Assembly (NCBI GenBank): GCA_035626855.1
Contig: DASPMW010000106.1
Coordinates: 1 to 63,435, forward strand
Direction of reading: 5' to 3'
DNA from: Patescibacteria group bacterium
Lineage (GTDB): Bacteria; Pseudomonadota; Alphaproteobacteria; Micavibrionales; UBA2020
Length of the DNA: 63,435 nucleotides
This document shows positions 14,136-19,018 of the stretch, in pieces (the first letter of the stretch is position 1; each line of letters opens with the position of its first letter). The notes under the pieces were generated by a model. That model was given only the letters and a program-made list of their open reading frames with translations. It did no database searches and had not been told where the DNA came from. The translations under genes and the position numbers were made by a program.

Positions 14136-14161
14136 GGAACTTATGTTCCTGATCAGGCGTT
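14136..14161 (+). promoter_or_regulatory. EcfG (general stress sigma) promoter GGAAC-N17-CGTT
   Basis: Exact motif upstream of the single-domain response regulator. Confidence 0.75.
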
Positions 14162-14199
14162 TTCATTGGGAACAGGGGTAAGTTTTGGGCTTTTTGAAC

Positions 14200-14589
14200 A
14201 TGTTACAACCGCCGACATGTAACGCCTCCGCGCAGAAGACCATCCTGCTCGTCGAGGACGATGATGATCTGCGCGACATGATGCGCAACATTCTAGAAAC
14301 AGCGGGATTCCACGTTATCGAGGCGACGACGGCAGACAGCGTCATCGCCGTCTTAAGCGCGCCGCACGATGTGGCTCTTGTCTTTACCGATGTCGCCCTG
14401 CCCGGCCAGGCCGACGGCTTTACCCTCGCCCGCATGGTGCGGGAGGCAATGCCGGATGTACCGGTCCTTGTGACCTCCGGCAAAGTGCCGCGCAACCAGG
14501 TGCCGGACGGGGTCACTTTCATCCCCAAGCCCTATATCCTCGCCAAGGTCCTCCAGAACATCCAGGAAGCCCTGCATACGGCCTGTTAG
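14200..14589 (+). CDS. Single-domain response regulator receiver
   Basis: ILLVEDD, LVFTDVALPG, VLVTSG, FIPKPY. Confidence 0.9.
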   Translation: MLQPPTCNASAQKTILLVEDDDDLRDMMRNILETAGFHVIEATTADSVIAVLSAPHDVALVFTDVALPGQADGFTLARMVREAMPDVPVLVTSGKVPRNQVPDGVTFIPKPYILAKVLQNIQEALHTAC

Positions 14590-15792: not shown

Positions 15793-15817
15793 GGAACCCC
15801 TGCAGGACCTTCGCGTT
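15793..15817 (+). promoter_or_regulatory. EcfG promoter GGAAC-N16-CGTT (yciF-like gene)
   Basis: Exact motif. Confidence 0.8.
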
Positions 15818-15859: not shown

Positions 15860-16366
15860 ATGAACGTCAAATCATTCGAAGATCTCTTCATCATGGAACT
15901 CAGCGATGTGTACAGCGCCGAGAAACAGCTGACCAAAGCACTCAAAAAAATGTCGAAAGCGGCCTCGGACGAGATGCTTGCGGAAGCCTTCATGATGCAC
16001 CTCGAGGAAACCGAGGGCCAGGTGGCGCGCATCGAGGAGCTTGCGAAGAAGGAAGGCCTCACGCTGAAACGCATCAAGTGCGAGGCGATGGAAGGCCTGA
16101 TCGCCGAGGGCCAGGAAGCGATCGACGAGGTCGAGGAAGGCCCCCTGCTCGACGTCGCGCTCATCATGGCCGCGCAGAAGGTCGAGCACTACGAAATCGC
16201 CGCCTACGGCTCGCTCGTCGAACTTTCCAAGCTGCTCGGCTATGCCGATGCGGAGGAACTGCTGAACGAGACGCTGGAGGAAGAAAAAGCAACCGACGTC
16301 AAGCTGACCGAAATCGCGGTCGGCAGCGTCAACGAACAAGCCGAGGCCATGCGCGCCGAGGCATAA
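15860..16366 (+). CDS. Ferritin-like DUF892 (YciE/YciF family) stress protein
   Basis: ELSDVYSAEKQL, HLEET, CEAMEGL, AAQKVEHYEIAAYG, LEEEKATD. Confidence 0.92.
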   Translation: MNVKSFEDLFIMELSDVYSAEKQLTKALKKMSKAASDEMLAEAFMMHLEETEGQVARIEELAKKEGLTLKRIKCEAMEGLIAEGQEAIDEVEEGPLLDVALIMAAQKVEHYEIAAYGSLVELSKLLGYADAEELLNETLEEEKATDVKLTEIAVGSVNEQAEAMRAEA

Positions 16367-16479: not shown

Positions 16480-16650
16480 ATGACAGATGACAAAAATCTC
16501 AAAGGCCAGGACCGCAAGCGCATCAGCCTGCAGGAGGACTACGAAGTCCGCTACTGGACCAAGGAACTTGGCGTGAGCGAAGAAGAGCTTCGCCAGCTAG
16601 TCGCGAAAGTCGGCAACTCGACCGACGCCGTCCGCCAATCGCTACGATAA
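16480..16650 (+). CDS. DUF3606 family small protein (56 aa)
   Basis: MTDDKNLKGQDRKRISLQEDYEVRYWTKELGVSEEELRQLVAKVGNS; GGAGG RBS. Not listed separately in the ORF track. Confidence 0.88.
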   Translation: MTDDKNLKGQDRKRISLQEDYEVRYWTKELGVSEEELRQLVAKVGNSTDAVRQSLR

Positions 16651-16661
16651 TTAATGCGTCG

Positions 16662-16696
16662 AAAAGGGGCCCCTGGTATTCGGGGGCCTCTTTTTT
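16662..16696 (+). terminator. Rho-independent terminator (possibly bidirectional)
   Basis: aaaaggggcccc-tggtattc-gggggcctctttttt. Confidence 0.7.
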
Positions 16697-16716
16697 CGTG
16701 AAGACGGAAAAGCCCC

Positions 16717-17670
16717 ATGAAAAAGAACCAGAAGACCCATCACACCAAGCCCGCGCCCGGCATAAAAAAAATCCCGAAACGCGGGACGCCGCGCGGCAAC
16801 ATCATTGTGATCGGCGGGCATGAGGATAAAGAGCAGGACAAAATCATCCTCGAGGAAATCGCAAAGCGCGCGGGCCGGGGCAAACTCATCGTCTCGACCA
16901 TGGCGAGCGAGGTCCCCGACCAGCAGTGGGAAGATTATCGCAAGGTGTTTCGCGAACTCGGCGTGAAGCGCGTGGAGCGCCTGGACATCCGCCAGCGCGA
17001 GGACATCATGGAAGACCCACGCACGGAAATCTTCGACGGCGCCAACGTCATGTTCTTCGCAGGGGGCGACCAGCTGAAAATCACCTCCAAAATCGGCGGC
17101 ACGCCGCTCTGCACCGCGATGCGCAAGATGTATCATGAAGGCGGCACCATCGCCGGCACCTCGTCGGGCGCCTCCGTCATGGGGGAAACGATGCTGATCG
17201 CGGGGCCGGGCGCCACCTCGCCCGAGCGCGAAACATCAGGGCGCATGGCGCCCGGGCTCGGTTTCCTGTCCGACGTCCTGATCGACCAGCATTTTGCCGA
17301 GCGCGGGCGCATCGGACGCCTGATGGGCGCAGTCGCGCTCAATCCGAGGGTGCTGGGCCTCGGCATCGACGAAGACACGGCGCTGATATTCGCCCGCGAT
17401 TTCTTTACCGTCGTCGGCAACGGCTCCGTCTACGTCATCGACGGCCGCGGCATGAAGCATTCCGGTTTCGCGCAGGATGAAGAGCAGGAAAAAATCTCGA
17501 TTTACGGCCTGAAACTGCACTTGCTTACGCAATCCGACAGGTTTCTGTTGAAAGACCGCCGCCCGGTGCCTGTCGGCCGCGACAATGTGGAAGCCGAGCT
17601 CAAGAGGCTCCGTCCCAAGCCGCGCGCCGCCCGCAAATCCTCCCCCACCAAAAAAAGGAAAAGCAAATGA
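16717..17670 (+). CDS. cphB: Cyanophycinase (peptidase S51)
   Basis: IIVIGGHEDK, FAGGDQ, AGTSSGA (Ser nucleophile), IDQHFAERGRIGRL, GIDEDT. Confidence 0.9.
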   Translation: MKKNQKTHHTKPAPGIKKIPKRGTPRGNIIVIGGHEDKEQDKIILEEIAKRAGRGKLIVSTMASEVPDQQWEDYRKVFRELGVKRVERLDIRQREDIMEDPRTEIFDGANVMFFAGGDQLKITSKIGGTPLCTAMRKMYHEGGTIAGTSSGASVMGETMLIAGPGATSPERETSGRMAPGLGFLSDVLIDQHFAERGRIGRLMGAVALNPRVLGLGIDEDTALIFARDFFTVVGNGSVYVIDGRGMKHSGFAQDEEQEKISIYGLKLHLLTQSDRFLLKDRRPVPVGRDNVEAELKRLRPKPRAARKSSPTKKRKSK

Positions 17671-17897
17671 CCAACAATAACCCGACGAACATGGAGTCCG
17701 GCAAGAACGCAGGACAGGAAACCGGCATCGAGAAAAACCAGCAAAAGAAATCCGCCCAATCGAACGGCGAGATCGAAAACAATGTCGAGAACGATCCCGG
17801 CGCGCAGAACTCCGGCGGCGATGAATCCATCAAAGGCATGGGCATGCGTAAATCATCGCAGACCGGCGTGAACAAGAGCAGCGATCATCCGGCCTGA
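17667..17897 (+). CDS. Small hydrophilic, probably disordered protein (76 aa)
   Basis: ATGA overlap with the cphB stop; rich in N/G/E/Q/S/K. Confidence 0.65.
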   Translation: MTNNNPTNMESGKNAGQETGIEKNQQKKSAQSNGEIENNVENDPGAQNSGGDESIKGMGMRKSSQTGVNKSSDHPA

Positions 17898-17927
17898 AGA
17901 TAGGTTGCGGCCGCGACGCCAGTCCTC

Positions 17928-18018
17928 GTCAAACCCGCAGAAGCGGGATCGACGGTGCTGACCCTAAGACCGCATTGCATGTTATAGGCTGTTGGATCCC
18001 CGCCTTCGCGGGGATGAC
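17928..18018. repeat. REP-like palindromic element (GTCAAACCCGCAGAAGCGGGATC...GGATCCCCGCCTTCGCGGGGATGAC)
   Basis: Two inverted CCCGC-NNNN-GCGGG hairpins with GTC/GAC ends, between convergent genes. Confidence 0.75.
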
Positions 18019-18048
18019 GGAATGACGAGGCCGGAAGCAGTCGCCCCG

Positions 18049-18945
18049 CTACGTCATCGAGGCCTTCCCGTCGCCATCGGTACGGCGCTCTTCCCTGCCC
18101 GTCTCTTCGCTTTTCTTGAGAAATACGGCAGGCTCGTCCATGTCGTCGGTCTGGTAGGCCACGGCGAAATGGGGACTGTTATGCGCCCAAGCCGGGTTTC
18201 CGTCGGAATCGAGTACGATGCCGCCCGCCTCGCCGTCGATACGCTCCAGTCGCTGCAGCGCGTAATCGATGGCATGCTGCACGGGCATCTGCTCCAGCCG
18301 GTGCATGACTTCAGCCGCCAGCATGGTGCGCGCGATATCCTCGCCCTCGCCCGACATGCACACGCCGCCCATCTTGTTATCGGCATAAAAACCGCACCCG
18401 GGCAGGGCTGAATCCCCGACGCGCCCCGGCGCGGCTTCTTCCAGCCCGCCTGTCGAAACGCCGGAAACGATATTGCCGTTCACATCGCGCGCGACGCAGC
18501 CGACGGTGTCGTGATTGCCGTCATTGCTCTCGCCCTGCGAAACCGCCGGCTCCATCTTTTTCTGTTTTGCGAAGGCTGTCGCATCCTCCCCGACCAGCAG
18601 GATGGGATCGTCGTTGAAGACCGCCTGCGCCACCTTGATGGGGTTCTTCACATCCATGATCGCCGCGACCGCGCCGATATTGAGCGTATCGCCGTCCATG
18701 ATCGAGGCATCCGTCTGCACCGAGCCGTCCTTGCGCTTCACGGCGCCCGCCCCGGCATTGAAGGTCGTATCATCCTCCAGCGCGCAGACGGCGGCCACCA
18801 CCGCGTCAAAGGCCGACCCGCCCGTGCGCAGGATGGCAGCCCCTGCCTCCAGCGCCGCCGCGACCCCCTTGCGGTTGTCTTCCTCTTCCTCCGGCTTGAT
18901 TTCCTTCGCGCCGCCGTGAACGATGATCGACCAATGCGATGTCAT
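18049..18945 (-). CDS. iaaA: Isoaspartyl peptidase / L-asparaginase (Ntn hydrolase, IaaA-like)
   Basis: IIVHGGA, LEDDTTFNAG, HD|TVGCVARD (Thr nucleophile), STGG, GRVGDS. Confidence 0.9.
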   Translation of the reverse strand: MTSHWSIIVHGGAKEIKPEEEEDNRKGVAAALEAGAAILRTGGSAFDAVVAAVCALEDDTTFNAGAGAVKRKDGSVQTDASIMDGDTLNIGAVAAIMDVKNPIKVAQAVFNDDPILLVGEDATAFAKQKKMEPAVSQGESNDGNHDTVGCVARDVNGNIVSGVSTGGLEEAAPGRVGDSALPGCGFYADNKMGGVCMSGEGEDIARTMLAAEVMHRLEQMPVQHAIDYALQRLERIDGEAGGIVLDSDGNPAWAHNSPHFAVAYQTDDMDEPAVFLKKSEETGREERRTDGDGKASMT

Positions 18946-18993: not shown

Positions 18994-19018
18994 AATGCGC
19001 TGCCGGGCCACAAGTTCC
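18994..19018 (-). promoter_or_regulatory. EcfG-type promoter GGAAC-N16-CATT (iaaA)
   Basis: Minus-strand motif 49 nt upstream of the iaaA ATG. Confidence 0.6.

What the first reader, a model, noticed from the sequence alone, without database searches (positions are those of the whole stretch)
16717..18945. Cyanophycinase plus isoaspartyl peptidase without an adjacent synthetase: a cyanophycin scavenging route inside a stress island
Seen in the sequence: an intact CphB (GTSSG, DQHF, GIDE) and an intact IaaA-type Ntn hydrolase (HD|TVG) facing each other, neither with a signal peptide, and no cphA in the window. Established: CphB releases beta-Asp-Arg from cyanophycin, and isoaspartyl dipeptidases of the IaaA type cleave that dipeptide to Asp and Arg. 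Inference: a complete cytoplasmic two-step degradation module, either for the cell's own polymer (cphA elsewhere) or for polymer taken from other cells, linked to stress or dormancy control by the EcfG-like promoter on iaaA.
Basis: partly seen in the sequence, partly recalled or inferred. Interest (0 to 1): 0.65.

Follow-up and report, generated by a model that had tools for sequence, protein, structure and literature searches.

The report
Cyanophycin breakdown genes in stress island
The two genes are a real cyanophycinase and its partner dipeptidase, but the genome also makes the polymer itself (cphA on another contig), so this is an ordinary nitrogen-reserve cycle; its one unusual trait is that all its genes sit in the genome's two densest general-stress promoter clusters.

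Summary
ORF 16717-17670 (+) is a cyanophycinase: TIGR02069 272 bits against a cut-off of 127, with the catalytic and Arg-pocket residues intact. ORF 18049-18945 (-) is an IaaA-type Ntn hydrolase. They are convergent, have no signal peptide, and the window has no cphA.

The "scavenging" reading fails. The same genome carries an intact cphA on contig C132 (1142 bits, cut-off 850). Among 320 species of the order (Micavibrio relatives), the long cphB and this iaaA were found only in genomes that have cphA. This IaaA subfamily sits inside cphA-iaaA-cphB operons in every outside genome sampled. The cphB-iaaA pairing is already described (Sharon & Schmeing 2023).

Two points go beyond that paper:
- The cphB/iaaA and cphA loci are the only 12-kb stretches of the genome with four or more perfect EcfG-type motifs. 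DUF892 neighbours and EcfG-type motifs in front of cyanophycin operons recur in four related species. No paper in the searched library links cyanophycin with EcfG.
- The window's cphB is a xenolog. It groups with soil iadA-type clusters rather than with its relatives' iaaA-linked cphB (AU p = 0.002).

cphB itself has no promoter motif and starts 20 nt after a terminator. Regulation is inferred, not shown.

The parts
15793..15817 (+). Perfect EcfG-type motif GGAAC-N16-CGTT, 42 nt before the DUF892 gene
15860..16366 (+). DUF892 (YciE/YciF-like) gene. Homologs recur next to cyanophycin genes in relatives.
   Evidence: Pfam PF05974, 177 bits; neighbours in G005, G015, G538 and C132
16425..16449 (+). 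Perfect EcfG-type motif, 30 nt before the DUF3606 gene. It is the nearest recognisable promoter upstream of cphB.
16480..16650 (+). DUF3606 gene
   Evidence: Pfam PF12244, 81 bits; homolog near iaaA-cphB in G005
16661..16697 (+). Intrinsic-terminator hairpin (15-bp stem, U-run) ending about 20 nt before the cphB ATG
   Evidence: fold, centroid -25.7 kcal/mol, z = -2.6; sequence
16717..17670 (+). cphB, cyanophycinase, 317 aa. Ser149-His192-Glu219 triad; Gln119, Asp190, Gln191, Arg196, Arg198 and Arg201 pocket; basic N- and C-terminal tails; a xenolog relative to the iaaA-linked cphB of relatives.
17667..17897 (+). Orphan 76-aa hydrophilic ORF overlapping the cphB stop (ATGA). GC3 is 0.74. It may or may not be a gene.
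   Evidence: no homolog among 1.84 billion representatives
17934..18016 (.). Two GC-rich hairpins between the convergent genes (CCCGCAGAAGCGGG; CCCCGCCTTCGCGGGG, REP-like). Likely a bidirectional terminator region.
   Evidence: about 60 similar hairpins in the genome
18049..18945 (-). iaaA-type isoaspartyl peptidase, 298 aa. Predicted self-cleavage Asp146|Thr147; Thr165, Arg175, Asp178, Ser179, Gly199; Ser198 in place of EcIaaA Thr230. It belongs to the subfamily found inside cphA-iaaA-cphB operons.
18994..19018 (-). One-mismatch EcfG-type site GGAAC-N16-CATT, 48 nt before the iaaA ATG
   Evidence: CATT variants occur in verified EcfG targets (PMC6599016)
19043..19606 (-). MEDS-domain gene, co-directional with iaaA and 97 bp upstream of it
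   Evidence: Pfam PF14417
19662..19686 (-). Perfect EcfG-type motif before the MEDS gene. It could also drive iaaA by read-through.

Best explanation
The window carries the degradative half of a complete, self-contained cyanophycin cycle in an uncultured Micavibrio-related alphaproteobacterium. CphA, on contig C132, polymerises Asp and Arg into cyanophycin. Cytoplasmic CphB (Ser149/His192/Glu219) cuts the polymer into beta-Asp-Arg. The IaaA-type Ntn hydrolase, after predicted self-cleavage before Thr147, splits the dipeptide into Asp and Arg. These steps follow from family membership, conserved residues and gene co-occurrence. It is an inference that the whole cycle belongs to the EcfG general stress regulon. 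On that reading, cphA is transcribed from an EcfG-type promoter through a DUF72/TrxB-like/cphA operon. iaaA is transcribed from its own one-mismatch site and/or the MEDS promoter. cphB is transcribed by read-through of the DUF3606 terminator. The cell would then bank nitrogen when growth stops under stress and release it on recovery. The cphB gene itself was acquired from a different (soil, iadA-type) cluster lineage and replaced the native iaaA-linked cphB.
For: Identity of the enzymes:
- TIGR02069 scores 272 bits against a cut-off of 127.
- Solved cyanophycinases 7UQV and 3EN0 match at E = 2e-57 and 5e-45.
- All nine catalytic and pocket residues are conserved.
- In IaaA, the nucleophile and 5 of 6 Asp-binding residues listed in PMC10206079 are conserved.
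- No IadA and no second Asparaginase_2 gene are found in the genome.

Own polymer:
- cphA on C132 scores 1142 bits against a cut-off of 850, with no internal stops and all domains present.
- In 41 relatives, a match over the cphA cut-off is found only in G000, G005, G015 and G038. These are exactly the genomes with a long cphB; iaaA is found only in G000, G005 and G038, plus a distant 38% hit in G017.
- In the order, 8 of 320 species have cphA.
- cphA-iaaA-cphB operons occur in G038, G128, G538 (Micavibrio sp. MAG), Roseomonas and Mesorhizobium, and an iaaA-cphB pair in G005.

Stress link:
- The genome has 74 perfect motifs against about 41 in shuffles.
- The only 12-kb windows with four or more motifs are on C132 and C106.
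- The motifs precede typical general-stress genes: CsbD, entericidin, DUF3606, DUF892, LigD, trehalose genes and HWE kinases.
- On C132 the motif heads the DUF72, TrxB-like and cphA genes, with no strong terminator between them.
- DUF892 lies next to cyanophycin genes in G005, G015, G538 and at both G000 loci.
- A motif with at most one mismatch lies within 150 bp upstream of 6 of 11 cyanophycin operon heads in the order; two of these are perfect (G005 and G537 cphA). The background is 0.025 per region, giving a binomial probability of about 1e-7.

Xenolog: tree and AU test; the nearest homologs lie in cphA-amidohydrolase-S51-S51 clusters.
Against:
- cphB has no EcfG-type site even with one mismatch, and it sits 20 nt behind a strong terminator.
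- The 102 bp directly upstream of cphA in this genome also lacks a site.
- The iaaA site has a mismatch, and such sites occur by chance at about 2e-4 per strand-base.
- The count of operon heads was made after the pattern had been seen.
- PhyR was not found above its cut-off. Only an EcfG-like ECF sigma was found.
- G038, G659 and alphaproteobacteria outside the order show no motif or DUF892 near their cyanophycin genes.
- IaaA has Ser where EcIaaA has Thr230, and it scores far below the E. coli equivalog cut-off (140 against 567).
- Enzyme activities are untested.
Confidence: 0.72

Rival explanations
1. Scavenging: the cell degrades cyanophycin taken from other cells, for example prey, using CphB and IaaA independently of any synthesis of its own.
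For: - The order contains Micavibrio, an epibiotic predator; the nearest named RecA hits include Micavibrio sp..
- cphB is not next to cphA in this genome.
- Genomes with clustered cphB and iaaA but no cphA are known, and are read as utilisation loci (PMC10206079).
Against: - An intact cphA is present in the same genome.
- Among the relatives, long cphB and iaaA never occur without cphA.
- Neither enzyme has a signal peptide.
- No transporter or secreted CphE-type enzyme lies nearby.
- Cyanophycin is an insoluble polymer that cannot reach a cytoplasmic enzyme intact (background knowledge).
Confidence: 0.06
2. The stress-island location is only a neighbourhood effect. The cyanophycin genes are transcribed from unrecognised housekeeping or nitrogen-regulated promoters and are not part of the EcfG regulon.
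For: - cphB has no motif and lies behind a terminator.
- There is no motif in the 102 bp before cphA.
- PhyR was not detected.
- G038, G659 and other alphaproteobacterial cyanophycin clusters lack motifs and DUF892.
- Variable islands tend to collect accessory genes (general knowledge).
Against: - The two loci are the two top motif clusters of the genome.
- Perfect motifs lie 29-34 nt before the cphA ATG in G005 and G537.
- 6 of 11 operon heads have a site, against 0.025 expected per region.
- The DUF892 linkage is seen in five loci of four species.
Confidence: 0.3
3. The IaaA-type enzyme serves general repair or salvage of isoaspartyl peptides from damaged proteins, or acts as an L-asparaginase, during stress. 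Its position near cphB is coincidental.
For: - IaaA enzymes, even those from cyanophycin clusters, are promiscuous for beta-aspartyl dipeptides (PMC10206079).
- Isoaspartyl damage accumulates in non-growing cells (general knowledge).
- The closest solved structures by score are ASRGL1-type isoaspartyl peptidase/asparaginases.
Against: - This subfamily (Ser at the Thr230 position, VFLKKSEE tail) lies between cphA and cphB in 3 of 3 sampled outside genomes, and also in G038, G128 and G538.
- In the order it tracks cphA.
- The two roles are not exclusive.
Confidence: 0.08
4. The CphB homolog is not a cyanophycinase but another S51 peptidase (PepE-like, or a cyanophycinase-like exopeptidase).
For: - Family S51 holds several specificities; PDB 6NQC, a 'cyanophycinase-like exopeptidase', matches weakly.
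- The gene is a foreign copy, not the lineage's native cphB.
Against: - TIGR02069 scores twice its cut-off, while PepE scores 20 bits against 156.
- All Arg-pocket residues are kept, unlike the genome's short S51 paralog, which has Thr and Tyr at the Gln173 and Arg178 positions.
- Its nearest relatives sit in cphA clusters.
Confidence: 0.04

Closest known systems
cphA1-cphB-iaaA cyanophycin clusters described by Sharon & Schmeing 2023 (Sci Rep 13:8314, PMC10206079), e.g. Roseivivax halodurans, RhIaaA structure PDB 8DQM
   Same: The same three enzymes and the same two-step degradation. An IaaA-type Ntn hydrolase is paired with cyanophycinase. Relatives of this genome (G038, G538) have the very operon cphA-iaaA-cphB.
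   Different: Here the three genes are dispersed: cphA is on another contig, and cphB and iaaA are convergent rather than in one operon. The IaaA belongs to a shorter subfamily with Ser at the Thr230 position. The cphB comes from another lineage. The genes sit in EcfG-motif clusters.
Synechocystis sp. PCC 6803 cyanophycinase CphB (PDB 3EN0) and the 7UQV/7UQW cyanophycinases
   Same: S51 fold family; Ser-His-Glu triad and the Gln/Asp/Arg pocket are conserved; matches at E = 5e-45 and 2e-57.
   Different: About 35-45% identity only. The window's protein has Lys/Arg-rich tails of about 28 aa (N-terminal) and about 35 aa (C-terminal). In cyanobacteria cphB is normally next to cphA.
Cyanophycin utilisation loci / extracellular CphE (scavenging systems; Ben Hania et al., cited in PMC10206079)
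   Same: Cyanophycinase clustered with an isoaspartyl dipeptidase and away from a synthetase.
   Different: Those systems lack cphA and include export signals or transporters. Here cphA is present, there are no signal peptides, and no transporter is adjacent.
Alphaproteobacterial general stress regulon (PhyR-NepR-EcfG; e.g. Sphingomonas melonis Fr1, PMC6599016)
   Same: The promoter motif is GGAAC-N16/17-(C)GTT within about 100 bp of the start codon. Similar neighbours occur: MscS, trehalose genes, Ku/LigD, and a single-domain response regulator.
   Different: No cyanophycin genes are reported in any EcfG regulon in the searched library. PhyR was not detected in this assembly.

Membership tests
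Cyanophycinase CphB (MEROPS S51; NCBIfam TIGR02069) | Full-length match to the equivalog model above its curated cut-off | tested here: met
   271.7 bits against 126.6, covering model positions 1-250 of 250
Cyanophycinase CphB (MEROPS S51; NCBIfam TIGR02069) | Ser-His-Glu catalytic triad (Synechocystis Ser132, His174, Glu201; numbering recalled from Law et al. 2009 and checked against the 3EN0 alignment) | tested here: met
   Ser149, His192 and Glu219 align
Cyanophycinase CphB (MEROPS S51; NCBIfam TIGR02069) | beta-Asp-Arg pocket residues Gln101, Asp172, Gln173, Arg178, Arg180, Arg183 | tested here: met
   Gln119, Asp190, Gln191, Arg196, Arg198 and Arg201. PMC12661447 says His174 and Arg178 are needed to bind the substrate. 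The genome's short paralog fails at two of these positions.
Cyanophycinase CphB (MEROPS S51; NCBIfam TIGR02069) | Releases beta-Asp-Arg from cyanophycin | not testable with these tools
   Needs an enzyme assay
Cyanophycinase CphB (MEROPS S51; NCBIfam TIGR02069) | Co-occurs with cyanophycin synthetase | tested here: met
   cphA is on C132. In the relatives, long cphB occurs only where cphA occurs.
IaaA / plant-type (class 2) isoaspartyl peptidase-asparaginase, Ntn hydrolase (Pfam PF01112) | Family domain over its whole length | tested here: met
   PF01112, 250 bits against a cut-off of 27
IaaA / plant-type (class 2) isoaspartyl peptidase-asparaginase, Ntn hydrolase (Pfam PF01112) | Autoproteolytic site with a nucleophilic Thr that starts the beta subunit (EcIaaA Thr179) | tested here: met
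   HD|T147VG. The beta chains of 1JN9, 2ZAL and 8DQM align from residue 147. Cleavage itself is untested.
IaaA / plant-type (class 2) isoaspartyl peptidase-asparaginase, Ntn hydrolase (Pfam PF01112) | Asp-binding residues Thr197, Arg207, Asp210, Ser211, Thr230, Gly231 (PMC10206079) | tested here: inconclusive
   Thr165, Arg175, Asp178, Ser179 and Gly199 are present. Position 230 is Ser198, as in all four members of the cphB-linked subfamily aligned.
E. coli IaaA equivalog (NCBIfam NF007589) | Score above the equivalog cut-off | tested here: not met
   140.6 bits against 567. The gene belongs to the wider family, not to the E. coli-type equivalog.
Cyanophycin-cluster IaaA (functional grouping of Sharon & Schmeing 2023) | Gene clustered (within 5 kb) with a cyanophycinase gene and, in relatives, with cphA | tested here: met
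   378 bp from cphB here. cphA-iaaA-cphB operons occur in G038, G128, G538, Roseomonas and Mesorhizobium.
EcfG (general stress) regulon | GGAAC-N16/17-CGTT promoter within about 100 bp upstream of the gene or operon | tested here: inconclusive
   iaaA has a one-mismatch site. cphB has none. cphA has a perfect site only at the head of a three-gene operon 2 kb upstream. Relatives have perfect or one-mismatch sites at 5 operon heads.
EcfG (general stress) regulon | The organism has the PhyR-NepR-EcfG module | tested here: inconclusive
   An EcfG-like ECF sigma matching PhyR_sigma2 is present. PhyR (NF006623) is not found above its cut-off in this 214-contig assembly.
Cyanophycin scavenging locus (CphE / utilisation locus) | No cphA in the genome; secreted enzyme or adjacent transporter | tested here: not met
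   cphA is present. There are no signal peptides and no transporter among the neighbours.

The most novel reading that the evidence does not exclude
In Micavibrio-related alphaproteobacteria, the whole cyanophycin cycle (cphA, cphB, iaaA) is a target of the EcfG general stress sigma factor and travels with DUF892 genes. Cyanophycin would then be a stress- or dormancy-controlled nitrogen reserve. This would be the first link between the alphaproteobacterial general stress response and cyanophycin, and a hint that DUF892 proteins act with it.
Probability: 0.45. Interest if true: 0.5.

Novelty: new member of a known kind. Interest (0 to 1): 0.33.

Why it matters
Little is known about what cyanophycin does outside cyanobacteria or how it is controlled there. 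This lineage gives a concrete, testable hypothesis: the general stress sigma factor drives both making and using the polymer. The supporting promoter and neighbour evidence is conserved across several uncultured species. The case also shows that a cyanophycinase can be swapped for a foreign copy while the partner dipeptidase and the synthetase stay native. The enzymology itself is textbook and adds nothing new.

Tried and rejected
- Scavenging without a synthetase: rejected, because cphA is on C132.
- PepE-like identity for the S51 protein: rejected.
- A second isoaspartyl dipeptidase: no IadA and no second Asparaginase_2 gene.
- A PhyR search with NF006623 found only receiver domains of OmpR-type regulators. 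The ECF sigma on C128 lies next to an OmpR-type regulator, not PhyR.
- Rfam over 13-25 kb: nothing above gathering score, and nothing near the two genes.
- Sigma-70-like promoter scan: none before cphB or cphA.
- A remnant of a native cphB downstream of iaaA: none.
- Homologs of the 76-aa ORF: none in Pfam, in the genome, or among 1.84 billion representatives.
- The pattern scan of genome contigs with CphB returned only distant hits of 51% identity or less.
- DUF892 or EcfG motifs near cphA in alphaproteobacteria outside the order: none. The stress link is therefore lineage-specific.
- No structure prediction was run; the sequence evidence was judged sufficient.
Full report
**1. The observation**

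The two ORFs exist exactly as described.

ORF 16717-17670 (+), 317 aa, is a cyanophycinase.
- It matches Pfam Peptidase_S51.
- It matches the NCBIfam equivalog TIGR02069 over the whole model with 271.7 bits (cut-off 126.6). The PepE model gives only 20 bits against a cut-off of 156.
- Solved cyanophycinases 7UQV and 3EN0 match at E = 2e-57 and 5e-45.
- In an alignment with relatives, every catalytic and pocket residue of the Synechocystis enzyme is kept: Gln119, Ser149, Asp190, Gln191, His192, Arg196, Arg198, Arg201 and Glu219, standing for Q101, S132, D172, Q173, H174, R178, R180, R183 and E201. The numbering is recalled from Law et al. 2009 and checked on the 3EN0 alignment. PMC12661447 confirms that His174 and Arg178 bind the substrate.

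ORF 18049-18945 (-), 298 aa, is an IaaA-type Ntn hydrolase.
- It matches Pfam Asparaginase_2 with 250 bits.
- The beta chains of solved IaaA/EcAIII enzymes, including the cyanophycin-cluster enzyme 8DQM, align from Thr147.
- PMC10206079 lists the nucleophile plus six Asp-binding residues for E. coli IaaA. The nucleophile and five of the six are present: Thr147, Thr165, Arg175, Asp178, Ser179 and Gly199. Thr230 is Ser198.
- It does not reach the E. coli-type equivalog cut-off (140 against 567 bits).

The genes are convergent, 378 bp apart. Neither has a hydrophobic signal sequence. The window holds no cphA.

**2. The synthetase is elsewhere in the same genome**

The window is contig C106 of a 2.92-Mb, 214-contig assembly. 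Contig C132 encodes a 945-aa CphA.
- It scores 1142 bits on TIGR02068 (cut-off 850) with no internal stops.
- It has the N-terminal, ATP-grasp and Mur-ligase domains.

No IadA and no second Asparaginase_2 gene are present, so the window's IaaA is the only recognisable beta-aspartyl dipeptidase.

A second, short S51 gene of 230 aa lies on C39.
- It passes the TIGR02069 cut-off but has Thr and Tyr at the Gln173 and Arg178 positions.
- It is present in most genus members whether or not they have cphA.
- It is probably not part of the cycle.

**3. Phyletic pattern and gene order**

RecA's nearest named relatives are uncultured Alphaproteobacteria and "Micavibrio sp." at 88%. One species of the same order, G538, is the NCBI "Micavibrio sp." MAG GCA_028290825.1.

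Cyanophycin genes are rare in this group:
- cphA occurs in 8 of 320 species of the order.
- It occurs in 9 of 401 sampled species of the class.

Among 41 close relatives, a match over the cphA cut-off occurs only in G000, G005, G015 and G038. These are exactly the genomes with a long cphB. The iaaA ortholog occurs in G000, G005 and G038.

Gene orders are:

| Genome | Arrangement |
|---|---|
| G038, G128, G538 | cphA-iaaA-cphB |
| G005 | iaaA-cphB, with cphA 1 Mb away |
| G015, G537 | cphA-cphB |

The IaaA subfamily is 280-298 aa long, with Ser at the Thr230 position and a VFLKKSEE tail. It is widespread in Alphaproteobacteria. All three outside members whose context I fetched lie between cphA and cphB: the Micavibrio MAG, Roseomonas xinghualingensis and a Mesorhizobium.

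The module works on the cell's own polymer. The scavenging reading is not needed, and it is mechanistically awkward for cytoplasmic enzymes.

**4. What is already known**

Sharon & Schmeing 2023 (PMC10206079) surveyed 27,349 genomes.
- Cyanophycinase and iaaA are clustered in 43% of the genomes that have both.
- 32 genomes have cyanophycinase and iaaA without cphA1, and in 94% of those the two genes are clustered.
- An IaaA from an alphaproteobacterial cphA1-cphB-iaaA cluster hydrolyses beta-Asp-Arg but stays promiscuous.

The core of the finding is therefore a new member of a described arrangement.

**5. The stress context**

The perfect motif GGAAC-N16/17-CGTT occurs 74 times in the genome, against about 41 in shuffled sequence. 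It precedes typical general-stress genes: CsbD, entericidin, DUF3606, DUF892, LigD, trehalose genes, glgC and HWE/PAS kinases.

Of 1407 sliding 12-kb windows (mean 0.35 motifs), all those with four or more motifs lie on two contigs:
- C106 at about 8-28 kb, the cphB/iaaA region, which holds 6 motifs at 14.1-24.5 kb.
- C132, the cphA contig, which holds 7 motifs in 28 kb.

On C132 a perfect motif heads a co-directional run: DUF72, an overlapping TrxB-like oxidoreductase, a 102-bp gap, then cphA. No strong terminator lies between them. Another DUF892 gene is convergent with cphA.

In the window:
- iaaA has GGAAC-N16-CATT 48 nt before its ATG. It also lies 97 bp downstream of the MEDS gene, which has a perfect motif.
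- cphB has no site. Its only possible ATG lies about 20 nt after a 15-bp terminator hairpin that follows DUF3606. It can only be expressed by read-through or from a promoter buried upstream.

In relatives:
- DUF892 is divergent from iaaA-cphB in G005, which also has DUF3606 nearby.
- DUF892 is divergent from cphA-cphB in G015.
- Two DUF892 genes, a KGG gene, an ECF sigma and a PAS kinase follow cphA-iaaA-cphB in G538.
- Perfect motifs end 29-34 nt before the cphA ATG in G005 and G537.
- One-mismatch sites that keep GTT stand before G005 iaaA-cphB, G015 cphA-cphB and G538 cphA.

Sites with at most one mismatch occur at 2.0e-4 per strand-base. A 150-bp upstream region therefore has one with P = 0.025. 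Six of eleven cyanophycin operon heads in the order have one, a binomial probability of about 1e-7. This count was made after the pattern had been seen.

The CATT, GGTT and AGTT variants occur in experimentally EcfG-dependent promoters of Sphingomonas melonis, whose motif is GGAAC-N17-20-GTT (PMC6599016).

The caveats are:
- G038, G659 and cyanophycin clusters outside the order show neither motif nor DUF892.
- PhyR was not found above its cut-off in this assembly. An EcfG-like ECF sigma is present.

No paper in the searched library contains both "cyanophycin" and "EcfG", or both "cyanophycin" and "DUF892".

**6. The cphB is a foreign copy**

- Among 5.8 billion proteins, the nearest homolog of the window's CphB is 58-60% identical. 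Its own genus relative is 47-49% identical.
- The closest homologs sit in cphA-amidohydrolase(iadA-type)-S51-S51 clusters from soil metagenomes. Named ones are Bryobacterales and Vicinamibacterales.
- In a maximum-likelihood tree, the iaaA-linked CphBs of G005, G015, G038, G128, G538, Roseomonas and Mesorhizobium form a clade (support 97/96). The window's CphB falls in the soil clade (99/98).
- The AU test rejects uniting it with the alphaproteobacterial clade, p = 0.0018. The group was defined after the tree had been seen.
- By contrast, cphA is 71% and iaaA 56% identical to G005.
- This fits the odd layout: a convergent orientation instead of an iaaA-cphB operon, and a position right behind a terminator.
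- GC3 (0.80) equals that of iaaA (0.80) and is close to the neighbouring ORFs, so the transfer is not recent. No remnant of a native cphB remains.

**7. Verdict**

- The most likely mechanism is an ordinary cyanophycin synthesis and degradation cycle on the cell's own polymer.
- With moderate confidence, the cycle is wired into the EcfG general stress response in this lineage.
- Novelty: a new member of a known kind, with a lineage-specific regulatory context worth a bench test.

Noticed in passing
window 17667-17897 (+): A 76-aa Asn/Gln/Gly/Glu/Lys-rich ORF overlaps the cphB stop codon (ATGA). It has an AGGA-like ribosome-binding site and GC3 of 0.74. It has no Pfam hit, no paralog in the genome and no homolog among 1.84 billion representative proteins. 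It is either an orphan small hydrophilic stress protein or not a gene.
   Followed up: yes
window 16661-16697 and 16717: The only possible cphB start codon lies about 20 nt after a strong terminator hairpin. This leaves no room for a promoter of its own, so expression must depend on terminator read-through.
   Followed up: partly
window 17934-18016: Two GC-rich hairpins lie between the convergent genes. One, CCCCGCCTTCGCGGGG(ATGACGG), resembles a REP-type repeat; about 60 hairpins of the pattern CCCCGC-N3-6-GCGGGGAT occur in the genome.
   Followed up: partly
G000 contig C39:12149-12841 (L013:7150-7842): A short S51 paralog (230 aa) passes the cyanophycinase model cut-off (197 bits) but has Thr and Tyr at the Gln173 and Arg178 pocket positions. 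It lies between a LysR regulator and a Dps/ferritin gene. It is present in most genus members that lack cphA, so it probably has another substrate.
   Followed up: partly
G000 contig C132:15932-21754 (L012:5933-11755): cphA appears to be the third gene of an operon headed by an EcfG-type motif: DUF72, a TrxB-like flavoprotein, then cphA. It is convergent with a DUF892 gene. A LigD-type ligase and a trehalose-synthase-like gene, each with its own motif, lie just upstream.
   Followed up: partly
G000 contigs C128:60888-61448 and C102:3133-3330: An EcfG-like ECF sigma factor is present in two nearly identical copies; one is cut by a contig end. PhyR was not detected above its cut-off anywhere in the assembly, and the C128 copy lies next to an OmpR-type regulator.
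   Followed up: partly
G000 contigs C167:3779 and C128:69453: EcfG-type motifs also precede glgC (glycogen synthesis) and a TreZ/GlgX-like gene. Several storage or protectant polymers may therefore share the stress regulon.
   Followed up: no
window 16717-16800 and 17560-17670: Lys/Arg/Pro-rich N-terminal tails of 20-40 aa before the conserved IIGG motif are common in non-cyanobacterial CphBs aligned here. The window's protein also has a Lys/Arg-rich C-terminal tail of about 35 aa that its relatives lack. Possible roles are granule or nucleic-acid binding.
   Followed up: no
window 14136-14589 (+): A single-domain response regulator with a perfect EcfG-type motif 23 nt upstream opens the island. 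This is reminiscent of the SdrG/MrrA-type regulators of the general stress response.
   Followed up: no
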